Assembly (NCBI GenBank): GCA_034780895.1
Contig: JAUZTB010000087.1
Location: forward strand, 71,566,583 to 71,630,582
Direction of reading: 5' to 3'
From: Rhynchobatus australiae
Lineage: Eukaryota
Length of the DNA: 64,000 nt
Shown here: positions 2,676 to 63,766 of the stretch, piece after piece
How positions within the stretch are numbered: the stretch's first letter is position 1
Layout: the number at the start of each line of letters is the position of its first letter
The notes under the pieces: model-generated
Database searches by the model: none
Told to the model about the DNA's origin: nothing
The model's input: only the letters and a program-made list of their open reading frames with translations
Position numbers and translations under genes: made by a program

Positions 2676-2803
2676 ATACTCAGGAACCTAGATAATAGTA
2701 TATACAGATGCGGCTGTTAAAATACTCGGGAACCGAGATAATATTATGTACAGATGCGGCTGTTAAAATACTCGGGAACCTAGATAATATTATATACAGA
2801 TGC
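2676..2803. repeat. 46-bp minisatellite running into a gap
   Basis: Unit atactcgggaacctagataatattatatacagatgcggctgttaaa; tacagatgc recurs at 2703, 2749 and 2795; N-run 2804-3022. Confidence 0.9.
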
Positions 2804-4154: not shown

Positions 4155-4325
4155 ATAAAACCAGAAAGTGATGGGAACACTCAGCAGGCTGGGCAGCATC
4201 TGTGAAAATTGAAACTGAGTTAATGTTTCAGGTCCAAGAATCTTTGCAACCTGAAATATTAACTCTGTTTCTTTTTCCACAGATATTGCCTGGCCTGGTG
4301 AGTGACTCCTGCACTTTCTGTTATT
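4155..4325. mobile_element. Penelope-terminus-derived fold-back element
   Basis: Inverted arms 4162-4233 and 4249-4320 (about 72 bp, 15-nt spacer); same sequence as the termini of the GIY-YIG-bearing copies at 15.4 and 29 kb. Confidence 0.8.
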
Positions 4326-4367
4326 ATTATGGAATGATCCTTGGATGGATTGAGACAGGAGCAAAAG

Positions 4368-14690: not shown

Positions 14691-15433
14691 GTTTTGTCAG
14701 CACAGATAGATATGGCGATCACAGAAAGTCAATGCTTTCCACACTACAGGCCCCTTACATCTATCAGCTGTGACATAGCAGGAATTGAAAAGTGCGAGTA
14801 GAATTAATATCCAGTAGTTTTTCCTCAGCTACTTTCCCTGACACAGGAGGAACTGTATCATCCTGAAGGGTATATTAATGACTTTGTTCCTTGAGGAATC
14901 AGAGTGCCTCTTTGCAGAAAATTTGAAAAAGATATGATGAACTAAACAGCTTTCCCACCATCTCCCACATTCAGTGATTCTGGAACTTATCCTAGTAATT
15001 CTGATTGTCTTCTCATCACCCACACCGTGCCTTGATTGGAACAGTGCTTCACCAGTTCTGAAAATGAATACTCTCATTAATTTGCAGGCACTGAAAAAAA
15101 AGATTAGAATAACATTTTGAATTTTGCTGAACACAAGCAGGAAATCAAAAGATTAAATTATGACCTCTTTCCTCCAGAACTGTGATATTACTAATGCTCA
15201 GGAATGGAGTCAAAGGATTTGGATCAGGATTTCTACACCAGCTGTGTCATCAGAGACAACGATAAGCATAGGCCTGCCAGTGGAAATAGTGAGCAGAGAC
15301 TTGTTTAAGGATAGATAGAGACCGTGCGCATGTAATTTAATAATTCGTGGGAAGTGAGCAGTTTCAAGCTTTGCAATGAATCATTATTTTAGTTTCACCC
15401 CTCTCATTCCACAAGCCCATCCATATAACAGAG

Positions 15434-16260
15434 ACACAAGGGACTGCAGATGCTGGAATTGGGAGCAACAAACAAACTGCTGGAGGAGCTTAGCAGTTCA
15501 AGCAGCATTTGTGGAGGGAAATGGACACAAGACTAGGCGACCGCTTTGCCGAGCACCTGCTGTCTGTCTGTCATGACTGCTTGGAACTCCCAGTTGCTAG
15601 CCATTTTAATTCCCCTCCCCATTCCCACACCGACATATTTGTCCTTAGCTTCCTCCACCGCTAAGGTGAGGCCAAATGCAAACTAGAGGAACAGGATAGT
15701 CTACAACCCAACGGCATGAGCAGTGAATTCTCCAATTTCAGGTAATCTGTTCCCTCTCTGTGCCTTTGTCTCTCCTCCCGGTCTACACAGTTCCTCCTTC
15801 ACAAATCCAACACCACCCCGCTTCCTCCCAGCCCCCATCACCTAGTTTCTTTCCCCTCCTCTACCGTCTCCATCTGCCCATCACCCACACACTCCTCCAA
15901 ATGGGTACCTTTCCCCCACTGTTCCCATGGGCCCTCCCCACCTTTCTTATTTGGTTCCATGCTCTACCTTCCCCTCCAATTAGATTCCATCAGCTGCAGC
16001 CTTTTGTTGCTTCCACCTATCACCTCCCAGCCTCTCTTGCTATTTCCACCCTTGCCTCCTCCACCTGCCAATCACCCCGCTTCTCCTGAATCCACCTATT
16101 GCTTGTCAGCTCTTGCCCTACCTCTTCCCCTCATCTCTTTATACTGGCAATCTTCCTCTACTCTTTCAGATGAAGGGTCTCAACTCAAACCACTAACTGT
16201 CCATTTCCCTCCATAGATACTGCCTGACCCACTGAGATCCTCCAGCAGTTTCTTTTTTGT
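15434..16260 (+). mobile_element. Penelope-like element (PLE) remnant: inverted terminus, GIY-YIG C-terminal part, pLTR
   Basis: LGDRFAEHLLSVC...LPVASHFNSPPHSHTD...KCKLEEQ...LQPNGMSSEFSNF; 5' arm is the inverse of the 3' end; degenerate TSD 15416-15433 vs 16261-16278 (14/18 identical). Confidence 0.88.
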
Positions 16261-22354: not shown

Positions 22355-22775
22355 TGTTCAAATGCAGTACTGAGGCAGTGCTGCAATGTTGGACATGTTG
22401 TCTTTTAAATGAGGCACTAAACTCATAGCCCAACACTCAAATGGAAGTTAAATATTACAGCACTATTTTGAAGAGCAGGGGAGCTTTCCAATTTTTCTGA
22501 CCAACATTTATCCTAAAATCAACATGACTAGAACAGATGTTAAAACAGAAAATACTAGAAACACTCAAGGGGTCAGGCAGCATCTGTAGAAAGGGATAAT
22601 ATTTCAGGCGGAAATGTGAAATGTAATAGATTGCTTGGTAATTATCATATTTCTGTTAGTGTGACTTTGTAGTGCGCCATGCACTACTGCATTTCAAAAT
22701 TACTTCTCTAGCCACGAAGCCTGTAATGGAATGTCCTGAGGTTGTGATAGATGTATTTATAAATACAAGTTCATT
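22355..22775 (+). mobile_element. DeuSINE (SacSINE1/AmnSINE1-like), with a PLE arm inserted at about 22540-22625
   Basis: Deu-domain gcagtactgagg.agtgctgca...cactattttgaagagcagggga and L2-type tail. Confidence 0.75.
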
Positions 22776-28924: not shown

Positions 28925-29440
28925 TGGAAATCTGAAATAAAAACACAATTCAACACCTGCCCTTTCACCTCTTTCCTTTCCACCATCCAGTGACTCAATC
29001 AGCAGCAATTCTTTTATAGCTCTTCCAATTTGATGTACTGTACTCTATGCTCACAATTTTGTCTCCTCTGCATCAAAGAAACTTGATGTAAATTGGGTGA
29101 TCACTTTGCAGGACACCCCTGTTTAGTCTGCAAGGGTAACCCTGAGCTTCCAGTAGTCTGTCATTTCAATTCTCCAGCCCACTCCGACTGCAAACTTTGG
29201 CCTCTTCTTATGCTGTTCCAACTGACCTCACTGCAAGCTTGCAGAAGAGCACCTCATCTTCCAAATTGGCACATTACAATCCTGAAGACTTACCACAGAA
29301 TTCAATAATGTTAGATAACCAGCGTTTTCAGTTTGTATCGGAAATGGCAAGTCCTGATGAAGTGTCACTGCCCTAATAAGGTAATCTTATTTCCCTCTCC
29401 ATAGATGCTGCCTGGCCTGCTGAGTATTTCCAGCTTTCTT
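28925..29440 (+). mobile_element. Penelope-like element remnant (GIY-YIG domain and pLTR)
   Basis: SSSNLMYCTLCSQFCLLCIKET, LGDHFAGH...LPVVCHFNSP; terminus gtcctgatgaag...atagatgctgcctggcctgctgagtatttccagc. Confidence 0.85.
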
Positions 29441-29879
29441 TTACTATCTTAATTTACTTTGCTCTGAGGTTGTTTGCTCCAATAATACTGTAGCAACACC
29501 CTAAATTGCCTGCGAACAAACACAGCCTATCCCCAAGCTCAAAAGCTTCTGTGAGTAATGGGTGAGTTCTTTGATCCCATCCCTCCATTTGTTCATTGTT
29601 TTCCTCCATTGGATATGAATACCCATATAACATGCCTAAGATATGTCAGTTTCTGCTGAAGCACCACGGCCTCAAGGGAAAAAAGTAGGTTTTCTTTGGC
29701 TTAGGGCTAAATGCTGACTGCTATTTTGGTTCTTGTTATGTGTGGGATTTTGAGCTTCTCCAGAAATCCAATTAATTGAAGCTTCTTCCTCTCACCCTTT
29801 GCTAAAATCCAGTTCTCACATCTGCACACCACTGTTGGGAAAGCTACTTTTATTCTATTTGCTGCAGCAACATTGTTAT

Positions 29880-38244: not shown

Positions 38245-38370
38245 ATTTAAAAAAAAATGTGCTAGGAACATTCAGCCAGTCATGCAGCTTCTGGGAAAGA
38301 GAAATATGCTGACTGACCTGTTGAGTACTTCCAGCACTTTTTAATGTCAGATTTCCACCATTTGTATTTT
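38245..38370. mobile_element. Decayed PLE-derived fold-back
   Basis: Inverted arms tgctaggaacattcagccagtca / tgactgacctgttgagtacttccagca; a weaker copy at about 37605-37775. Confidence 0.6.
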
Positions 38371-44228: not shown

Positions 44229-44395
44229 GTGACACAGGAGATTGCAGAAGCGGGAATCTGGAGCCAAAAAAATAAACTCCAGGAGGAAATCCAGATGAAG
44301 GATTCAGATGAAGAGACTTGACCCGAAACATTGACTATCCATTTCCTTCCACAGATACTGCCTGACCCGCTGAGTTCCTCCAATGGTTTGGTTTT
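44229..44395 (+). mobile_element. 167-bp non-coding PLE-derived insertion with a 14-bp TSD
   Basis: Flanked by identical TGAAAGCAGATTTA at 44215-44228 and 44396-44409; contains cagatgaagagacttgacccgaaacattgact. Confidence 0.85.
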
Positions 44396-46609
44396 TGAAA
44401 GCAGATTTACCTTGTTGTCACTGAGCTGGGAAGGGTCAGTAAATCTGCCTGGGTTCCTCCTGCCCCTGGTTTAAATGCAATGAGTATTGCCGAAAATAGG
44501 TGCATCAGGTGAGGATAATATTCAGCTCAGCTGTGATTGGCAAAGTCTGCCAACAGTTTAGGATCACATATGGAGAGTGACCACATTAGTACAGCATTGG
44601 AAAACTGCCAGTGTCTGCATTGCATCAATCAACACCTTCTGAAATGGCACAGAGAAAATGAAGGGAAAAGTCTGTCCATCACTTTAGCTACAAGTCTCAC
44701 ACTTAACAACATCCTTTTTACCAGTACAAGCACTATGCATTCACCTCAGGTGCAAAACAAAAAGGAAATTCTGGGAGATTCTGCTTCTAACAGTTGGGTC
44801 TTATACAATAACAGATAGCCTGAGAAGAGGCAATCTGAAAGGAGACTGAGAAAAGTGATCAAAAGGCATCGAGACAGTTTTCCACATAATTAGTCTGAAA
44901 ATCAGCTTTGACAAACATCAGAAGTAGGTTTACAAATGTGCAATTCCAAGTTGGATCTTGTGGACTGCGTGCACAGTGGGAATTTGAGAGNNNNNNTTTG
45001 AACTTCACAAGCCTGAAAGAATTTCCCAATCGTTTACTGTAACAGACAGCAAGCTGTAGAGGTCTCTGACACCTGTAAACAAATTCCCAATATTGTGGCA
45101 CCTGGTGCAAAATACTGTGCCAGCAATGTGAATTTACAAAGTTGTCTCAATAGATTTGGAGGTATGAGAGCCTAATTGTTATGGACCAGCCAATGGCCTT
45201 TCCAAGTACAAATCCCAGCTGCTGTAGTGGGATATGAACTTGTATCCTGGATTATAATTAGTCCTTATGCCAACAATTTAACAGCAACTTCCCTTGTGCC
45301 ATCTTAGACTCTGAATGGGTTGGACTGAAATTGCTTGTCCTACTTTCTTGTCACTCATTTAGAACAAAATGGTATTGTATCATGGAGTAGTAGAATGAGA
45401 TTTCCATGAATGCTGTTCATTCATTGGTACTCCGGCGGCACAAATATATAAAATCTTTCATCATATTTTATATAAACATCATATTTTTCTAAGCAGATAA
45501 AGCTATTTAGACAGGCTTCTGCAGCTCCACAGAATTCTTGTCCATTTCCCATTATTAGAATCTCTTAACCTGGCATGAAATTCACAGGATCCCGATTTAA
45601 GCACAAAATCTCCTCATTGTTGATTGGCATTTTAATTGCTCAGTGTGTTAAGCAGGAACCCAGTCAACAGATCAGTTATCCATTGCATGCTTACGACTTC
45701 CTTCAAAAAAATATGTAACAGACAGCTGGCAGTTCCAAGGCTACAGTTCATACCTGATTAACAGCCTTCAGCTCTGTGCCAGCTGTTGATGCTGCACGTG
45801 ATCTATATGCATTCTGGAAAACACTAGATTTAACAAGGAATTTAGAAAAAGTTATTTACTGGCTTACATGATTATTGGTCCATTCATTGTACCACAACAA
45901 CAAGGTCAGTAGGGAAAATCTCATAAGGCAATTTCATGTTGTCTGTGTTCGTGATGTAATTGCCTGCTGTAGTTATTACTTTATATATTAGCAGCATTTA
46001 TACCTTGTGTTCTACTTGAACTATTTGAATTTTCTCACATGTACACTGGTACTTAGGGTGGAACTACCACACAACTTTTTGTGTTAAATATTGCGTGGCA
46101 TCGAAAAGCTCACTGTTAACTCAAACTGAATCTCTGTGTTACTCCATCCACTTACTGAAAATTTAAACAGCTAACACCATTGAATCTATTAATCCACAGC
46201 TACCAGCAACTTCAGAGCAGACCCATCAAATTGCTGAGAAGTCAAGCAATAAACAAACACGTCACAAGATATAAACTGAGGAAGCAAAAGATAAAACTGT
46301 AGGCAATCAAAATCTCAAATGGATATACAGATAGTTTCTCAGTATCAGGAAAAGGATTAAATTAATGTAGTACCTGAAGAATCTTCCAGAGAATTAAGTG
46401 GGATGTAGAGGAGGAGTCGGGGAAGATAGTTCCATTCTGCTCCTCCACCTCATATGCAAGAACACAGAGAAAAGGAGTTTGTGCCATTTTCCTAGAGTCC
46501 CCATGGAGCTTCCTTCAGAGGATGAGTGTCAAGAATTTACATTTAGATACCACTTGGCATTTCATTAGAGAAATTATTGAACAATGTATGATCTATAAGT
46601 ACTCATCAG

Positions 46610-47857: not shown

Positions 47858-48095
47858 TCCTTTCGTCACTCAACATACCTTTCCTGTTACCCTCCCTCAT
47901 GCCTTCCTTTTTGTTCTTTGCTCCCCTCCCCCCCTTTCACAGTATCTTAAAACTTCCTCAATTCTAACTTTTTCCAGTTGTCCTGAAAAGTTACTGACCT
48001 GAAGCGCTAGCTCTATTTCTCCCTCCACAGAGAAAGCCTGGCCTTGAGTATCTTCAGCATTTCATGATTTTTGTTTTCAGCTATCCAGCAGATGT
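47858..48095 (+). mobile_element. PLE pLTR remnant
   Basis: Pyrimidine-rich pLTR body, then ctgacctgaagcgctagctctatttctccctccacaga...ttcagcattt. Confidence 0.7.
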
Positions 48096-58474: not shown

Positions 58475-59340
58475 AATCATAGAAAAATCATAGAGATTTA
58501 TGTCACAGAAAGGAGGTCATACAGGCCTCAGAATTCATGCAGCTAAAGATTTACTGATCCAACATAATAGATCTCAGTCCATAGACTTGTAGGTTATGGT
58601 TCAAGTTCTCATCCAGTGCTGCCTCAAATGTGATGAGACTTTCTGCCTTCACCTCTCCTTCTGCCTCCACTACCCTATCATGTGAAGAGTTCCTGACCCA
58701 CTCTAATCTTTGGGTAATTTCTTTTTCTTCAAATTTCATCCTTTGATCAATTAACTAATCAGTCCAGATCTCCTAGTTAATGATTTCTCTGATAGATGAC
58801 ATAGGGTGAATATGAAGGACCAATCACAGTGTTCCNNNNNNNNNNATTTCTAGTCACGTGCTCTTAAATTTCCCCTGCACCCTCTCCAGCACTACCACAT
58901 TTCCTGTAACGTGGTGATCAGGACTGTTGACAGTATTCTAACTGTCCTCTAACTTGAGTTACTTAGTATACAGTTCTGGTACGACCTTACTGTTCTTCTG
59001 TTCCGCTGAAGGGTCTTGCACCGAAACATTGACTGTTTATTTCCCTCCATAGATGCTGCCTGACCTGCTGAGTTCCTCCAGCACTTTGCATGTGTTGCTT
59101 ACTGTCTTCTATTCTGTTGCTTGACCAATTAAGGCAACTATTGCATAAGCCTTTATAACCTGCTCACCTACCTGTTTGCTGCCTTCAGATATCTGTGGAC
59201 ATCCAACATAAGATCACTGTCTTCATCTACATGTGTTAATACTCACTATATATCATGCATTGTTGTGCCTTGTTTGCCTTCTCCAAATCCATTACCTCAC
59301 GATTCTCTGGATTGAATTCCTTTTACTGCTTATGTGTCTA
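58475..59340 (-). mobile_element. Old CR1 LINE with a PLE terminus inserted at about 59004-59097
   Basis: Reverse CR1 tail and ORF2; insert flanked by imperfect repeat cttactgttcttctgttc / cttactgtcttctattc. Confidence 0.75.
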
Positions 59341-61285: not shown

Positions 61286-61717
61286 TTCTTAATATATCAA
61301 CATAGAACATGATAACATTCCCTGGTGTCCTGGCAACATTTATCCTCAATCAATATCAAAGAAGCAGATTACCTGGATAACCACACTATTTGTAGGAACT
61401 TTCCATATGCAAATTGACTGTTACCATGACAACAGTTCTTTGGGATATCATGAAGGGGATAATATCTTTTTCTGCTGCAGCATATTTTCCTGCAACACTA
61501 AAAATGGAAGAATAATGCCAGGTACACAAAGGCTGGCGAGTTTTTGACCAGCCCCAACACCATCTGGCAAATGGCCTGCTCTGTATCATAAATTTTCTAT
61601 GATTCCACAGGGATAAAAAAAAGAAAAAAAGAAAATTTTCATGTTTTGAATAGATACTGCGTAATAATGAATTGTGAGGTTTGGATGCTTCACAGATTCA
61701 CGATTTCACAGTAAGAT

Positions 61718-61834
61718 ATAGAACCATAGAACCATAGAACAATACAGCACAATACAGGCCCTTCGGCCCACCATGTTGTGCCACCCATCAAAACACACCT
61801 CACACTATCTAACCCTTTCCTCCTGCATATCCCT
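61718..61834 (-). mobile_element. Young CR1 tail
   Basis: (atagaacc)n tail; about 4 differences from 63294-63402 over about 110 bp. Confidence 0.88.
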
Positions 61835-62300: not shown

Positions 62301-62594
62301 TCACTGTGTAGAGCAACTTAACCATCAATCGGTTGGATGAGGAGGTCCAATTGCATTCCACTTGCAGCAGAGGGAGGGGGCCCTCTGAGTTGCTGATTTT
62401 CCACTGCACAAGCAGTCCCGTCATTACACGAACAGTGAAGGTCCCCAGTCTGGCATTCTCAACCACATCCTCGGTACTGCATGAACTATCAGGGATACTT
62501 TTCTTTTAGTCCGTTTCTCTTTTTGTGATATCACTGGACAACTATTTACTGGAAGCCATTCTGCTTATGCATCAGGAATACCATTTACCCTGGA

Positions 62595-62872
62595 AACACA
62601 AGGCAGACTGCAGATGCTGGAATCTGGAGCAACACACAAGATGCTGAGGGAACTCAGTGGGTCAAGCAGCATCTATGGAGAGAAATCTGACTGTGAAATC
62701 ATGAATCTGTGAAACATCCAAACATTGCAATTCATTATTACTCAAGATGTCAGCTCTGTTCAAAAGATGAAAGCTTTCCAGATGAAGGGCCTCGACCTGA
62801 AACGTCGACTGTCCATTTCTCTCGGAAGATGTTGCCTGACCTATTGAGTTCCACCAGCATCTTGTGTGTTGC
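62595..62872 (+). mobile_element. PLE-derived fold-back with the best-preserved hammerhead-like motif
   Basis: Inverted arms about 62629-62686 and 62814-62872; CAGATGA-AGGGCCTCGACCT-GAAACGTC-GACTG at 62779-62811. Confidence 0.85.
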
Positions 62873-63293
62873 ATGTTATTTTTCCTGATGTTTCTCCCTT
62901 GGTGATGTAAGTGATATACGTCTTTCAGAACTATCCTATTAATCTTATTGGGTGCTTCTCGGGGAGGTCTAGTTGTTGGGCATCAATACTTATCATTTGG
63001 CATGGAAGGAATCCAGCCAATCAGCACACACCTATATATACATCTGCTAAAAGAACCCTAAGGCAAACCTTGTCATCAGTTTTTCCATTGGAAGCCAGCA
63101 GAAGCAAGGTTTGCCATCTGGAAAATTGATGGAAGCATGCAGCTATTAAATTCCATGTCAATCAGAAGTAAAATTGCTGGACAAAGATCATATAAACTGC
63201 AAATAATTTATTGTGCTTAGCCGTGAGTTAGTATGGTAACTGGTTTAGTTTTGTTCAATATCATGGTCGCAGCTTTATCACATCGTTCTTCTA

Positions 63294-63766
63294 ATAGAAC
63301 CATAGAACAATACAGCACAATACAGGCCTTTCGGCCCACCATGTTGTGCCGCCCATCAAAACACACCTCACACTATTTAACCCTTTCCTCCCGCATATCC
63401 CTCTATCCCACATTCCTCCATATGCCTATCCAACAATCTCTTAAACCTGTCTAATGTATCTGCCTCCTCCACCACCACCCCAGGCAGCGCATTCCATGCA
63501 CCCACCACTCTGTGGGTGAAAAACCTCCCTCTGACATCTCCCCTGAACTTCCCACCCATAACCTTAAAGCCATGCCCTCTTGTCTTGAGNNNNNNNNNNN
63601 NNNNNNNNNNNNNNNNNNNNNNNNNNNNNNNNNNNNNNNNNNNNNNNNNNNNNNNNNNNNNNNNNNNNNNNNNNNNNNNNNNNNNNNNNGCCTCCACACC
63701 ACATTATAGGAAGGACGTGGAGGCGTTAGAGAGGGTGCAAAGGAGATTTACCAGGATACTGCCTGT
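63294..63766 (-). mobile_element. Young CR1 3' end, with an oppositely oriented CR1 piece after the gap
   Basis: KTRGHGFKVMGGKFRGDVRGRFFTHRVVGAWNALPG on minus; 63698-63766 reads HYRKDVEALERVQRRFTRILP on plus. Confidence 0.9.

What the first reader, a model, noticed from the sequence alone, without database searches (positions are those of the whole stretch)
62779..62811. Minimal hammerhead-ribozyme motif in the termini of a Penelope-derived repeat family
Seen: at least six related copies (16167, 29354, 44305, about 47980, 59003, 62779) share one position in the terminal repeat. Combining them gives AGTC-CTGATGA-A-GGGT(CTCG)ACCC-GAAACGTC-GACT: stem I AGTC (29350-29353) / GACT (62807-62810), core CUGAUGA (intact at 29354-29360), stem II, GAAA, a palindromic ACGU in place of helix III, and a GUC cleavage triplet (62804-62806). 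Established: metazoan Penelope-like elements carry minimal type-I hammerheads with palindromic helix III, proposed to act as dimers. Inference: this abundant repeat is ribozyme-bearing. No single copy here is fully intact.
Basis: partly seen in the sequence, partly recalled or inferred. Interest (0 to 1): 0.7.

Follow-up and report, generated by a model that had tools for sequence, protein, structure and literature searches.

The report
Penelope hammerhead lineages with mutated cores
The motif is a known kind of tiny self-cutting RNA at the end of a Penelope-type jumping gene, but this copy comes from one of two lineages that spread widely with a changed catalytic core predicted to cut poorly, which suggests the element does not need to cut its RNA to be copied.

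Summary
Observation confirmed. The repeat is the terminal repeat (pLTR) of an RT + GIY-YIG Penelope-like element (PLE), roughly 4x10^5 fragments genome-wide. It carries the published metazoan minimal type-I hammerhead. Stems I and II show one compensatory change each in an older lineage.

The copy at 62779 cannot fold as a hammerhead. It lacks stem I's 5' strand and belongs to a lineage with a fixed U4A core change; another lineage has A9C. Both have ORFs under purifying selection and account for 54 of 78 scorable copies outside the oldest cluster.

Copy 5' ends pile up at the ribozyme's 5' edge (40 of 77), often with a cap-like extra G, and not at the cut site (4 of 101). So the hammerhead likely forms the first 36 nt of the mRNA, and copies are made from uncut RNA. 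Cleavage was not tested.

The scan has reported PLE hammerheads many times (782 notes, three in this genome), and the capped-start reading on other DNA. The lineage-fixed core variants appeared in none of my searches.

The parts
62777..62875 (+). Short sense copy of the PLE pLTR (lineage B): hammerhead region plus short tail; 5' end 2 nt before C3, inside stem I's 5' strand
   Evidence: boundary -2; B flank
62779..62786 (+). 5' half of the core, CAGAUGA plus bulged A (9a); A at position 4 is the lineage-B state (U4A)
62787..62798 (+). Stem II and loop, decayed here: C.A mismatch at 10.4:11.4, G.U at 10.1:11.1
62799..62806 (+). GAAA, palindromic ACGU (A15.1-C15.2-G16.2-U16.1) and C17; predicted cut site after 62806
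62807..62810 (+). 3' strand of stem I; its 5' partner is mostly missing in this copy
62829..62875 (+). Tail = first codons of the element's ORF (ATG at 62829-62831, 50 nt after C3)
   Evidence: L359, L366: this frame runs into the PLE N-terminal domain
62592..62686 (-). Inverted arm: long tail without the hammerhead
   Evidence: (I11, D18)
62687..62772 (-). Spacer between the arms: inverted copy (80%) of unique host DNA at 61637-61715
   Evidence: I5; 2 matches in the genome
15431..15527 (-). Inverted tail arm at the 5' junction of a longer lineage-B copy
15528..16163 (+). End of the GIY-YIG endonuclease coding region (about 15528-15746, broken by stops) and pyrimidine-rich 3' UTR
16164..16260 (+). 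Decayed lineage-B hammerhead and tail of that copy
29350..29448 (+).
44303..44398 (+). Decayed short lineage-B copy
47975..48074 (+). Strongly decayed copy with an E-like flank
59003..59096 (+). Decayed lineage-A copy
4157..4326 (.). Overlapping inverted pair of old (E) copies
22542..22608 (-). Old (E) tail fragment
38249..38344 (.). Inverted pair of tail fragments

Best explanation
This is a worn, 5'-truncated end repeat of a Penelope-like retrotransposon whose minimal hammerhead likely forms the first 36 bases of the element's capped mRNA, and it descends from a lineage with a fixed U4A core change predicted to cut poorly, so copies were likely made from uncut RNA. Steps: (1) shown: one ORF (RT, CX4CxxC linker, GIY-YIG) with the hammerhead plus tail both downstream of it and just upstream of its start codon (partial tandem). 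(2) inferred: transcription starts at the A of stem I's 5' strand (YYA+1NWYY initiator-like in lineages A-D and in most E copies with upstream sequence); the predicted cut is at mRNA base 32 and the ORF ATG at base 55. (3) inferred, by analogy with anole PAc: reverse transcription is primed at nicked DNA and starts inside the tail. On the 5' tail it runs about 95-150 nt to the cap and gives the very common short copies, often with an extra G; on the 3' tail it gives longer 5'-truncated copies such as 15528-16260. (4) inferred: canonical lineages (A, D, E) can probably self-cleave weakly, as dimers through the ACGU palindrome or with help from the element protein. That would remove the cap and act as a processing or braking step, not a step needed for copying. 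(5) shown at sequence level: lineages B (U4A) and C (A9C) amplified about as much as the canonical ones.
For: PLE identity: RT motifs upstream of GIY-YIG in EN-selected loci. Majority ORF stop-free for 531 codons with LYT, AMG, YID and YIGET motifs. Homologues of about 900 aa carry RVT_1 plus GIY-YIG, best hits in rays and sharks. The tail lies 100-760 nt downstream in 13 of 29 EN-selected loci. L366 reads 3'UTR-hammerhead-tail-ORF start; the L359 frame matches PLE N-termini at E 5e-13. Hammerhead: exact counts A 363, D 801 and E 11, controls 0. C2.1-G1.1 to U-A and G10.1-C11.1 to A-U. A-D differ at only 1-4 of 36 nt among A, B, C, against synonymous pS 0.36-0.48. Core variants: position 4 is A in 109, C in 53 and G in 7 exact copies. 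Loci chosen only by EN/3'UTR of a B copy have A4 in 18 of 22 and U4 in 0; those chosen by a C copy have C9 in 7 of 10. dN/dS 0.19-0.21 between lineages. EN tree separates A, D and C from B. 54 of 78 non-E copies in position-chosen samples carry A4 or C9. CUGA mutants show low activity in a type III hammerhead (PMC9901934). 5' ends: 40 of 77 end at +3..-8 against 4 of 101 at +25..+31. Extra G in 14 of 20 non-templated -5 bases, against 1 of 50 long copies. PAc hammerhead mutants still insert in vitro (PMC11167929).
Against: No cleavage assay and no cap-based start mapping. RNA reads from another organism show no pile of ends at the start or the cut site, and cover both strands. Each compensatory change is one event on one old lineage. 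The tool's tests on pair counts are not above shuffles (421/500, 498/500), although cells paired and covariation score are (0/500). Helix III is not kept in the 11 exact E copies (ACAU). The outer stem I pair is broken in C and D. The pairwise dN/dS cannot date the core changes, which may have arisen just before each burst. The youngest lineages (A, D) keep a canonical core. U4C is tolerated in a viroid (PMC3088659). I found no mutational datum for A9C. 11 of 14 extra-G junctions also have T at -6, which a cap alone does not explain. 5' boundaries come from local alignment and are uncertain by a few bases. Cluster E (57 of 161) was left out of the boundary test.
Confidence: 0.75

Rival explanations
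1. Cleavage is required, and the U4A and A9C RNAs are cut in trans: in a hammerhead dimer the catalytic strand of a canonical RNA (A, D or E) cuts the intact GUC site of a variant RNA, since the lineages share stem I and the ACGU palindrome.
For: B and C keep the substrate strand and stem I unchanged; the changes hit only the catalytic strand. Chimeras L042 and L279 show that lineages' RNAs or cDNAs met. Dimer activity is published (PMC4209133).
Against: Copy ends show no peak at the cut site. B and C also keep stem II and GAAA. B is older than A and D, so partners may not have been co-expressed.
Confidence: 0.1
2. The variant cores are active: U4A and A9C (or a C inserted between G8 and A9) are tolerated natural variants once the protein chaperones folding.
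For: Natural core variants with residual activity exist (PMC3088659). The rest of the motif stays conserved in B and C. PAc cleavage needs protein.
Against: Single changes in CUGA give low activity (PMC9901934). All rows seen in the published alignment keep U4 and A9 (part 2 of 3).
Confidence: 0.12
3. The pile-up of 5' ends is not a transcription start. It reflects a 3' splice site (pyrimidine tract plus CAG ends exactly in stem I, as the D. virilis intron does) or fold-back of the cDNA once stem I has been copied.
For: (Y)nCAG precedes the core in lineages A-D, and the AG is kept where its pairing partner is lost. The D. virilis intron ends at helix I. About 10 of 22 short copies are preceded by an inverted tail.
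Against: No shared exon and no 3'UTR piece upstream of 22 short copies. No GT..AG joint into that site among the joints shown (35 not shown). The other ends of the inverted joints are scattered. The extra G fits a cap.
Confidence: 0.15
4. The motif is kept only as a DNA promoter or RNA hairpin, and no lineage cleaves any more.
For: Monomers of A, B and C fold into a long hairpin that buries GAUG against CGUC, and both core changes leave it intact. PLE clades without hammerheads thrive (PMC8557442).
Against: The youngest lineage D changes only free positions (N7, loop II, H17) and loses that extra helix. PAc's motif does cleave with protein.
Confidence: 0.1

Closest known systems
Minimal type-I hammerheads in pLTRs of metazoan PLEs (Cervera and De la Pena 2014, PMC4209133; read parts 1-2 of 4 of the main text, part 2 of 3 of supplementary file 2 and a keyword search of it; file 1 not searchable)
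   Same: CUGANGA plus bulged 9a, G10.1-C11.1, GAAA-C-G-U-H with no loop III, 3-5 bp stem I, pyrimidine-rich 5' flank, mostly solo truncated copies, pairs on opposite strands; the pufferfish rows have the same C-G palindrome.
   Different: Stem II is only 4 bp. Two whole lineages carry U4A or A9C, seen in none of the rows read. No chondrichthyan row was found (shark, Callorhinchus, Leucoraja: 0 hits in file 2).
PAc, Poseidon element of Anolis carolinensis (Frangieh et al. 2024, PMC11167929; read parts 1-2 of 4)
   Same: Hammerhead at the pLTR-ORF junction; tail equals the first part of the ORF; two groups of 3' ends; no RNA ends at the cut site; insertion independent of cleavage in vitro.
   Different: Here the ATG lies 22 nt after the cut site, not at stem II. 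The element has a CX4CxxC linker (Neptune/Nematis trait per PMC8557442). The core changes are natural and lineage-wide, not engineered.
Neptune-clade EN+ PLEs (Craig et al. 2021, PMC8557442; passages read)
   Same: C-terminal GIY-YIG with a CCHH pattern, CX2-5CxxC linker before it, partial tandems, inverted 5'-truncated copies, tail.
   Different: Clade not tested by phylogeny; Nematis also has the linker.
Non-LTR retrozymes (Li et al. 2026, bioRxiv 10.64898/2026.07.22.740005; part 1 of 5 and passages read; supplements not seen)
   Same: Type I hammerheads derived from PLE pLTRs; reported in one chondrichthyan.
   Different: Retrozymes are tandem arrays with a hammerhead in each unit. These copies are solo or inverted pieces of an ORF-bearing element; no head-to-tail array was seen at the loci compared.

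Membership tests
EN+ Penelope-like element | Single ORF with PLE-type RT and C-terminal GIY-YIG | tested here: met
   Motifs and a 531-codon stop-free majority frame; homologues with RVT_1 and GIY-YIG above or near cut-off. Genomic fragments alone gave RVT_1 at E=0.0011, below cut-off, and no GIY-YIG hit.
EN+ Penelope-like element | [quoted passage not shown] | tested here: met
   3' copy after the EN; 3'UTR-hammerhead-tail-ORF start in L366, and hammerhead-tail-ORF start in L359. Shown from different copies; no single complete element was fetched.
EN+ Penelope-like element | Optional tail and inverted 5'-truncated arms | tested here: met
   3' ends run from +88 to +153 with groups near +90-113 and +128-145 (56 of 75 loci scored); inverted arms at 62592-62686 and 15431-15527.
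Neptune clade | CX2-5CxxC linker between RT and EN | tested here: met
   CX4CxxC in L011 and L049 translations; definition from PMC8557442.
Neptune clade | Placement in an RT phylogeny | not tested
   No named reference PLE proteins were in hand.
PLE minimal hammerhead (family level) | Core CUGANGA-H ... GAAA-N-N-U-H | tested here: met
   Lineages A (363 exact), D (801) and E.
PLE minimal hammerhead (lineages B and C) | Invariant U4 and A9 | tested here: not met
   B has A4; C has C9 or an inserted C. They are derived variants of the motif.
PLE minimal hammerhead (family level) | Stems I and II with covariation; G10.1-C11.1 pair | tested here: met
   85% of cells paired; both-side changes at 1.1:2.1 and 10.1:11.1; position-chosen copies p=0.002 and 0.0008. 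Both changes sit on one old lineage, so this is weak support.
PLE minimal hammerhead (family level) | Palindromic 15.2-16.2 allowing dimers | tested here: inconclusive
   ACGU in A-D; ACAU in 11 of 11 exact E copies and mixed in the E cluster. Predicted minimum-energy dimers are not the hammerhead dimer.
PLE minimal hammerhead (copy at 62779) | Able to fold as a hammerhead | tested here: not met
   Stem I 5' strand truncated, U4A, stem II mismatch; different predicted fold.
PLE minimal hammerhead (family level) | Self-cleavage after position 17 | not testable with these tools
   Needs an assay; genomic 5' ends show no peak at the site.
Non-LTR retrozyme | Tandem units each with a hammerhead, no ORF | tested here: not met
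   Copies are pieces of an ORF-bearing element; no array at 30 + 20 self- or cross-compared loci or downstream of 75 loci. Not surveyed genome-wide.

The most novel reading that the evidence does not exclude
Natural knock-outs of the Penelope ribozyme: two ORF-intact lineages in sharks and rays fixed different catalytic-core mutations and still made on the order of 10^5 copies. The hammerhead occupies the capped first 36 bases of the mRNA, so cutting would decap it. It is a self-limiting brake rather than a processing step, lineages that lose it burst and then die out, and only lineages with a canonical core persist.
Probability: 0.3. Interest if true: 0.68.

Novelty: new variant of a known kind. 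Interest (0 to 1): 0.45.

Why it matters
The role of hammerheads in PLEs is open. They were proposed to process precursor RNA (PMC4209133), were dispensable for insertion in vitro (PMC11167929), and may be mere passengers (PMC8557442). This genome offers matched natural lineages with canonical (A, D, E) and altered (B, C) cores on near-identical scaffolds, plus junction evidence that the motif starts the mRNA. A short set of cleavage assays and 5'-end mapping could then show whether cutting is needed, regulatory or irrelevant. The motif itself, and this worn copy, are ordinary.

Tried and rejected
Rfam scan of the window: no hammerhead family at E<=10. Pfam on genomic EN fragments: nothing, so identity rests on motifs and homologues. 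The empty RT and EN columns came from an invalid tblastn option and were not used; blastn shows B and C colinear with the A ORF. U4A as random decay: rejected (109 A against 7 G; linked to its own flank, 3'UTR and EN). B and C as ORF-less derivatives: rejected for the part covered. Spliced 5' exon on short copies: none found. Target-site duplications: two plausible 7-mers among 23 loci, not clearly above the swapped control of 9 in 506. Monomer folding energy is not unusual against shuffles (z -0.8 to +0.5). Sequencing-run search: no RNA holder listed on record; this is not evidence on expression. Reads of three RNA runs from one study of organism F showed no pile of ends; they mix many passive copies, so this is uninformative on cleavage. 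The first walk toward the element's 5' end did not reach it; the second did. Lunse et al. 2017 (PMC5785218) is not held and could list such core variants. Literature searches for the variants and for chondrichthyan cases found none in the listings. Look-ups in the scan's own notes by sequence and by variant words were empty.

Full report
1. Observation. A profile built from seven window copies finds 13 family hits at E<=0.0011; the best control hit had E=0.016. No window copy passes a strict minimal-hammerhead descriptor, and Rfam has no hammerhead hit. The composite is real: 363 exact matches in the 2.23-Gb genome, 0 for the reversed pattern. In 116 stretches chosen by position only (115 of 10 kb plus the window; 1.01 Mb without N), a profile of the downstream flank alone gave 187 hits. 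That scales to about 4x10^5 fragments, counting inverted arms separately. Of 161 scorable copies, 2 were fully intact by core, stems and palindrome.

2. The element. A GIY-YIG-type frame lies upstream of the motif in some loci and at window 15528-15746. Among 29 other loci chosen by that protein, 13 have the tail 100-760 nt downstream on the same strand; nine loci ended within 200 nt. RT motifs lie further upstream. The lineage-A majority frame is stop-free for 531 codons. Homologues of about 900 aa carry RVT_1 plus GIY-YIG, and the closest named ones are from rays and sharks. A CX4CxxC linker precedes the endonuclease, a Neptune/Nematis trait (PMC8557442). Walking upstream reached the start of the element. 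L366 reads 3'UTR, hammerhead, tail, ORF start, and in L359 the frame from an ATG 50 nt after C3 matches the N-termini of the homologues (E 5e-13). So the tail is the first part of the ORF, as in anole PAc (PMC11167929).

3. The hammerhead. It fits the published metazoan consensus, including the bulged base 9a and the loop-less C-G palindrome (PMC4209133). Clustering on the downstream flank alone gave five groups. A is canonical. D is canonical with N7=A, H17=U and another loop; it is the least diverged, with 801 exact copies. E is the oldest, with U2.1-A1.1 and A10.1-U11.1. B and C carry core changes. On 30 chosen copies, 85% of cells pair; the covariation score and cells with double changes beat all 500 shuffles, but the pair-count measures do not (421/500, 498/500). 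In 108 position-chosen copies the two pairs covary (p=0.002 and 0.0008). Both changes map to one lineage, so they count as two events. Among A, B and C the 36-nt motif differs at 1-4 sites once CpG decay is set aside (raw majorities 3-6). Synonymous divergence is 0.36-0.48 and the adjacent 3'UTR differs at 17-32%.

4. Core variants. Exact counts for position 4: U 363, A 109, C 53, G 7. A4 travels with its own flank (7 of 12 scorable B-flank copies, against 1 of 10 A-flank). Thirty loci chosen only by the EN/3'UTR of window copy 15528-15860 gave 22 non-self loci with the motif region: 18 A4, 0 U4, 2 other, 2 deleted; 7 loci had no motif region. Lineage-A EN loci have U4 in 8 of 10 readable. For lineage C (CUGAUGCA; 62 exact), 7 of 10 non-self loci have C9; 19 of 30 had no motif region, many because of N or contig ends. 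A tree on 46 EN segments, without the motif, gives clades A (0.995), D (1.0) and C (0.96), leaves B as a star-like group, and shows two chimeras, L042 and L279. Majority ORFs are stop-free over 254 (B) and 400 (C) codons, with dN/dS 0.19-0.21 and dS 0.49-0.76. Among 105 of 161 copies with the 5' half present, 54 of 78 non-E copies carry A4 or C9 and 18 carry U4 plus A9; 20 of 27 E copies are canonical. Identity to own majority orders the lineages B (85%), C (88%), A (91%). A4 is also present in reads of organism F (about 13% in X21) and contigs of organism G. Single CUGA mutants have low activity in a type III hammerhead (PMC9901934, passage). For A9C I have only the general statement that most core changes are drastic (PMC3088659).

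5. Copy ends. Among 104 non-E copies, 5' ends are rare at the cut site (4 of 101 at +25..+31) and common at the motif's 5' edge (40 of 77 at +3..-8). In 75 exact-match loci, 22 end at 0..-8 against 3 of 45 at -18..-26. Following a lead from note e1-8159683, I tested the base before AGUY. In short copies it is C 19, G 14, A 4, T 2; G makes up 14 of 20 non-templated bases (expected 0.26, p=6e-5), against 1 of 50 in long copies. An extra G is the known mark of an RT copying a cap (recalled, no call). The site also fits the initiator consensus YYANWYY (recalled motif; sequences), and D. virilis Penelope has a pLTR-internal promoter (PMC2377424, passages). The same bases resemble a 3' splice site, but no shared exon precedes 22 short copies and no such joint is shown in RNA reads.

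6. The copy itself. 62777-62875 is a short lineage-B copy that begins 2 nt before C3. It lacks most of stem I's 5' strand, has a stem II mismatch and folds differently, so it is predicted to be inert. An inverted tail arm lies at 62592-62686. The 86-nt spacer between the arms is an inverted copy of unique DNA 1 kb upstream (2 matches in the genome). This would fit priming on both strands with a template switch to nearby host DNA (inference; PAc extends both strands).

7. Mechanism and rivals. The best reading is a capped mRNA that starts at stem I, internal RT initiation in the tail, and copies made from uncut RNA. Cleavage at base 32, if it occurs in A, D and E, would decap the message. Shown: anatomy, counts, lineage states, end distribution. 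Inferred: start site, cap, cleavage, and low activity of B and C. Rivals are trans cleavage in mixed dimers, tolerated variants, a splice-site or fold-back origin of the ends, and a purely structural motif. Canonical clusters (E, A, D: 81 of 161) and variant-rich clusters (B, C, mixed: 79 of 161) are about equally abundant, so loss of the core did not clearly raise copy number.

8. Novelty. PLE minimal hammerheads are known, and this scan holds 782 notes on them in at least 42 genomes, three in this genome. The capped-start reading was noted before on other DNA. Lineage-fixed U4A and A9C cores were not found in the paper listings, nor in the scan's notes. Lunse et al. 2017 was not seen, nor supplementary file 1 of PMC4209133 or the bioRxiv supplements, and any of them could bear on this. 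Further papers seen as passages only: PMC6765202, PMC12192606, PMC6155905; PMC3088659 section 8 was read whole. Verdict: new variant of a known kind, interest 0.45.

Noticed in passing
window 62687-62772 and 61637-61715: The spacer inside the PLE palindrome is an inverted 80% copy of unique host DNA 1 kb upstream, likely captured during insertion.
   Followed up: partly
L042 and L279: Chimeric copies: lineage-A endonuclease with a lineage-B hammerhead end, and lineage-C endonuclease with a lineage-A end; points to template switching between lineages.
   Followed up: partly
core AUG (A6-U7-G8), e.g. window 62782-62784: In A, B and C the core's AUG opens a 21-codon frame that overlaps the main ATG out of frame; D lacks it (N7=A). 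It could damp translation of uncut RNA, but lies only about 8 nt from the predicted cap.
   Followed up: no
L029, L076, L210 1497-1536: Monomers of A, B and C are predicted to pair core GAUG with CGUC, an inactive hairpin extending stem I; D does not form it.
   Followed up: partly
short copies such as L023, L068, L070, L080: 11 of 14 extra-G junctions read TG before AGUY; the T is not templated in lineage A and is unexplained.
   Followed up: partly
L006 1391-1438: A piece of the ORF's 5' region is joined directly to the end of the 3'UTR and hammerhead: an internally deleted derivative.
   Followed up: no
L359 about 1330-1500: The element's N-terminal coding region holds a run of 42-nt Pro/Ser/Ala-rich tandem units.
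   Followed up: no
window 61726-61834 and 63294-63402: Two 96% identical copies of another repeat flank the finding; it looks like the 3' end of a CR1-type LINE on the minus strand (recalled, not tested).
   Followed up: no
genome: U4C occurs in 53 exact copies, 15% of the U4 count; a transition hotspot or a further sub-lineage.
   Followed up: no
window 2676-2803: Three tandem 46-nt units running into an N stretch.
   Followed up: no
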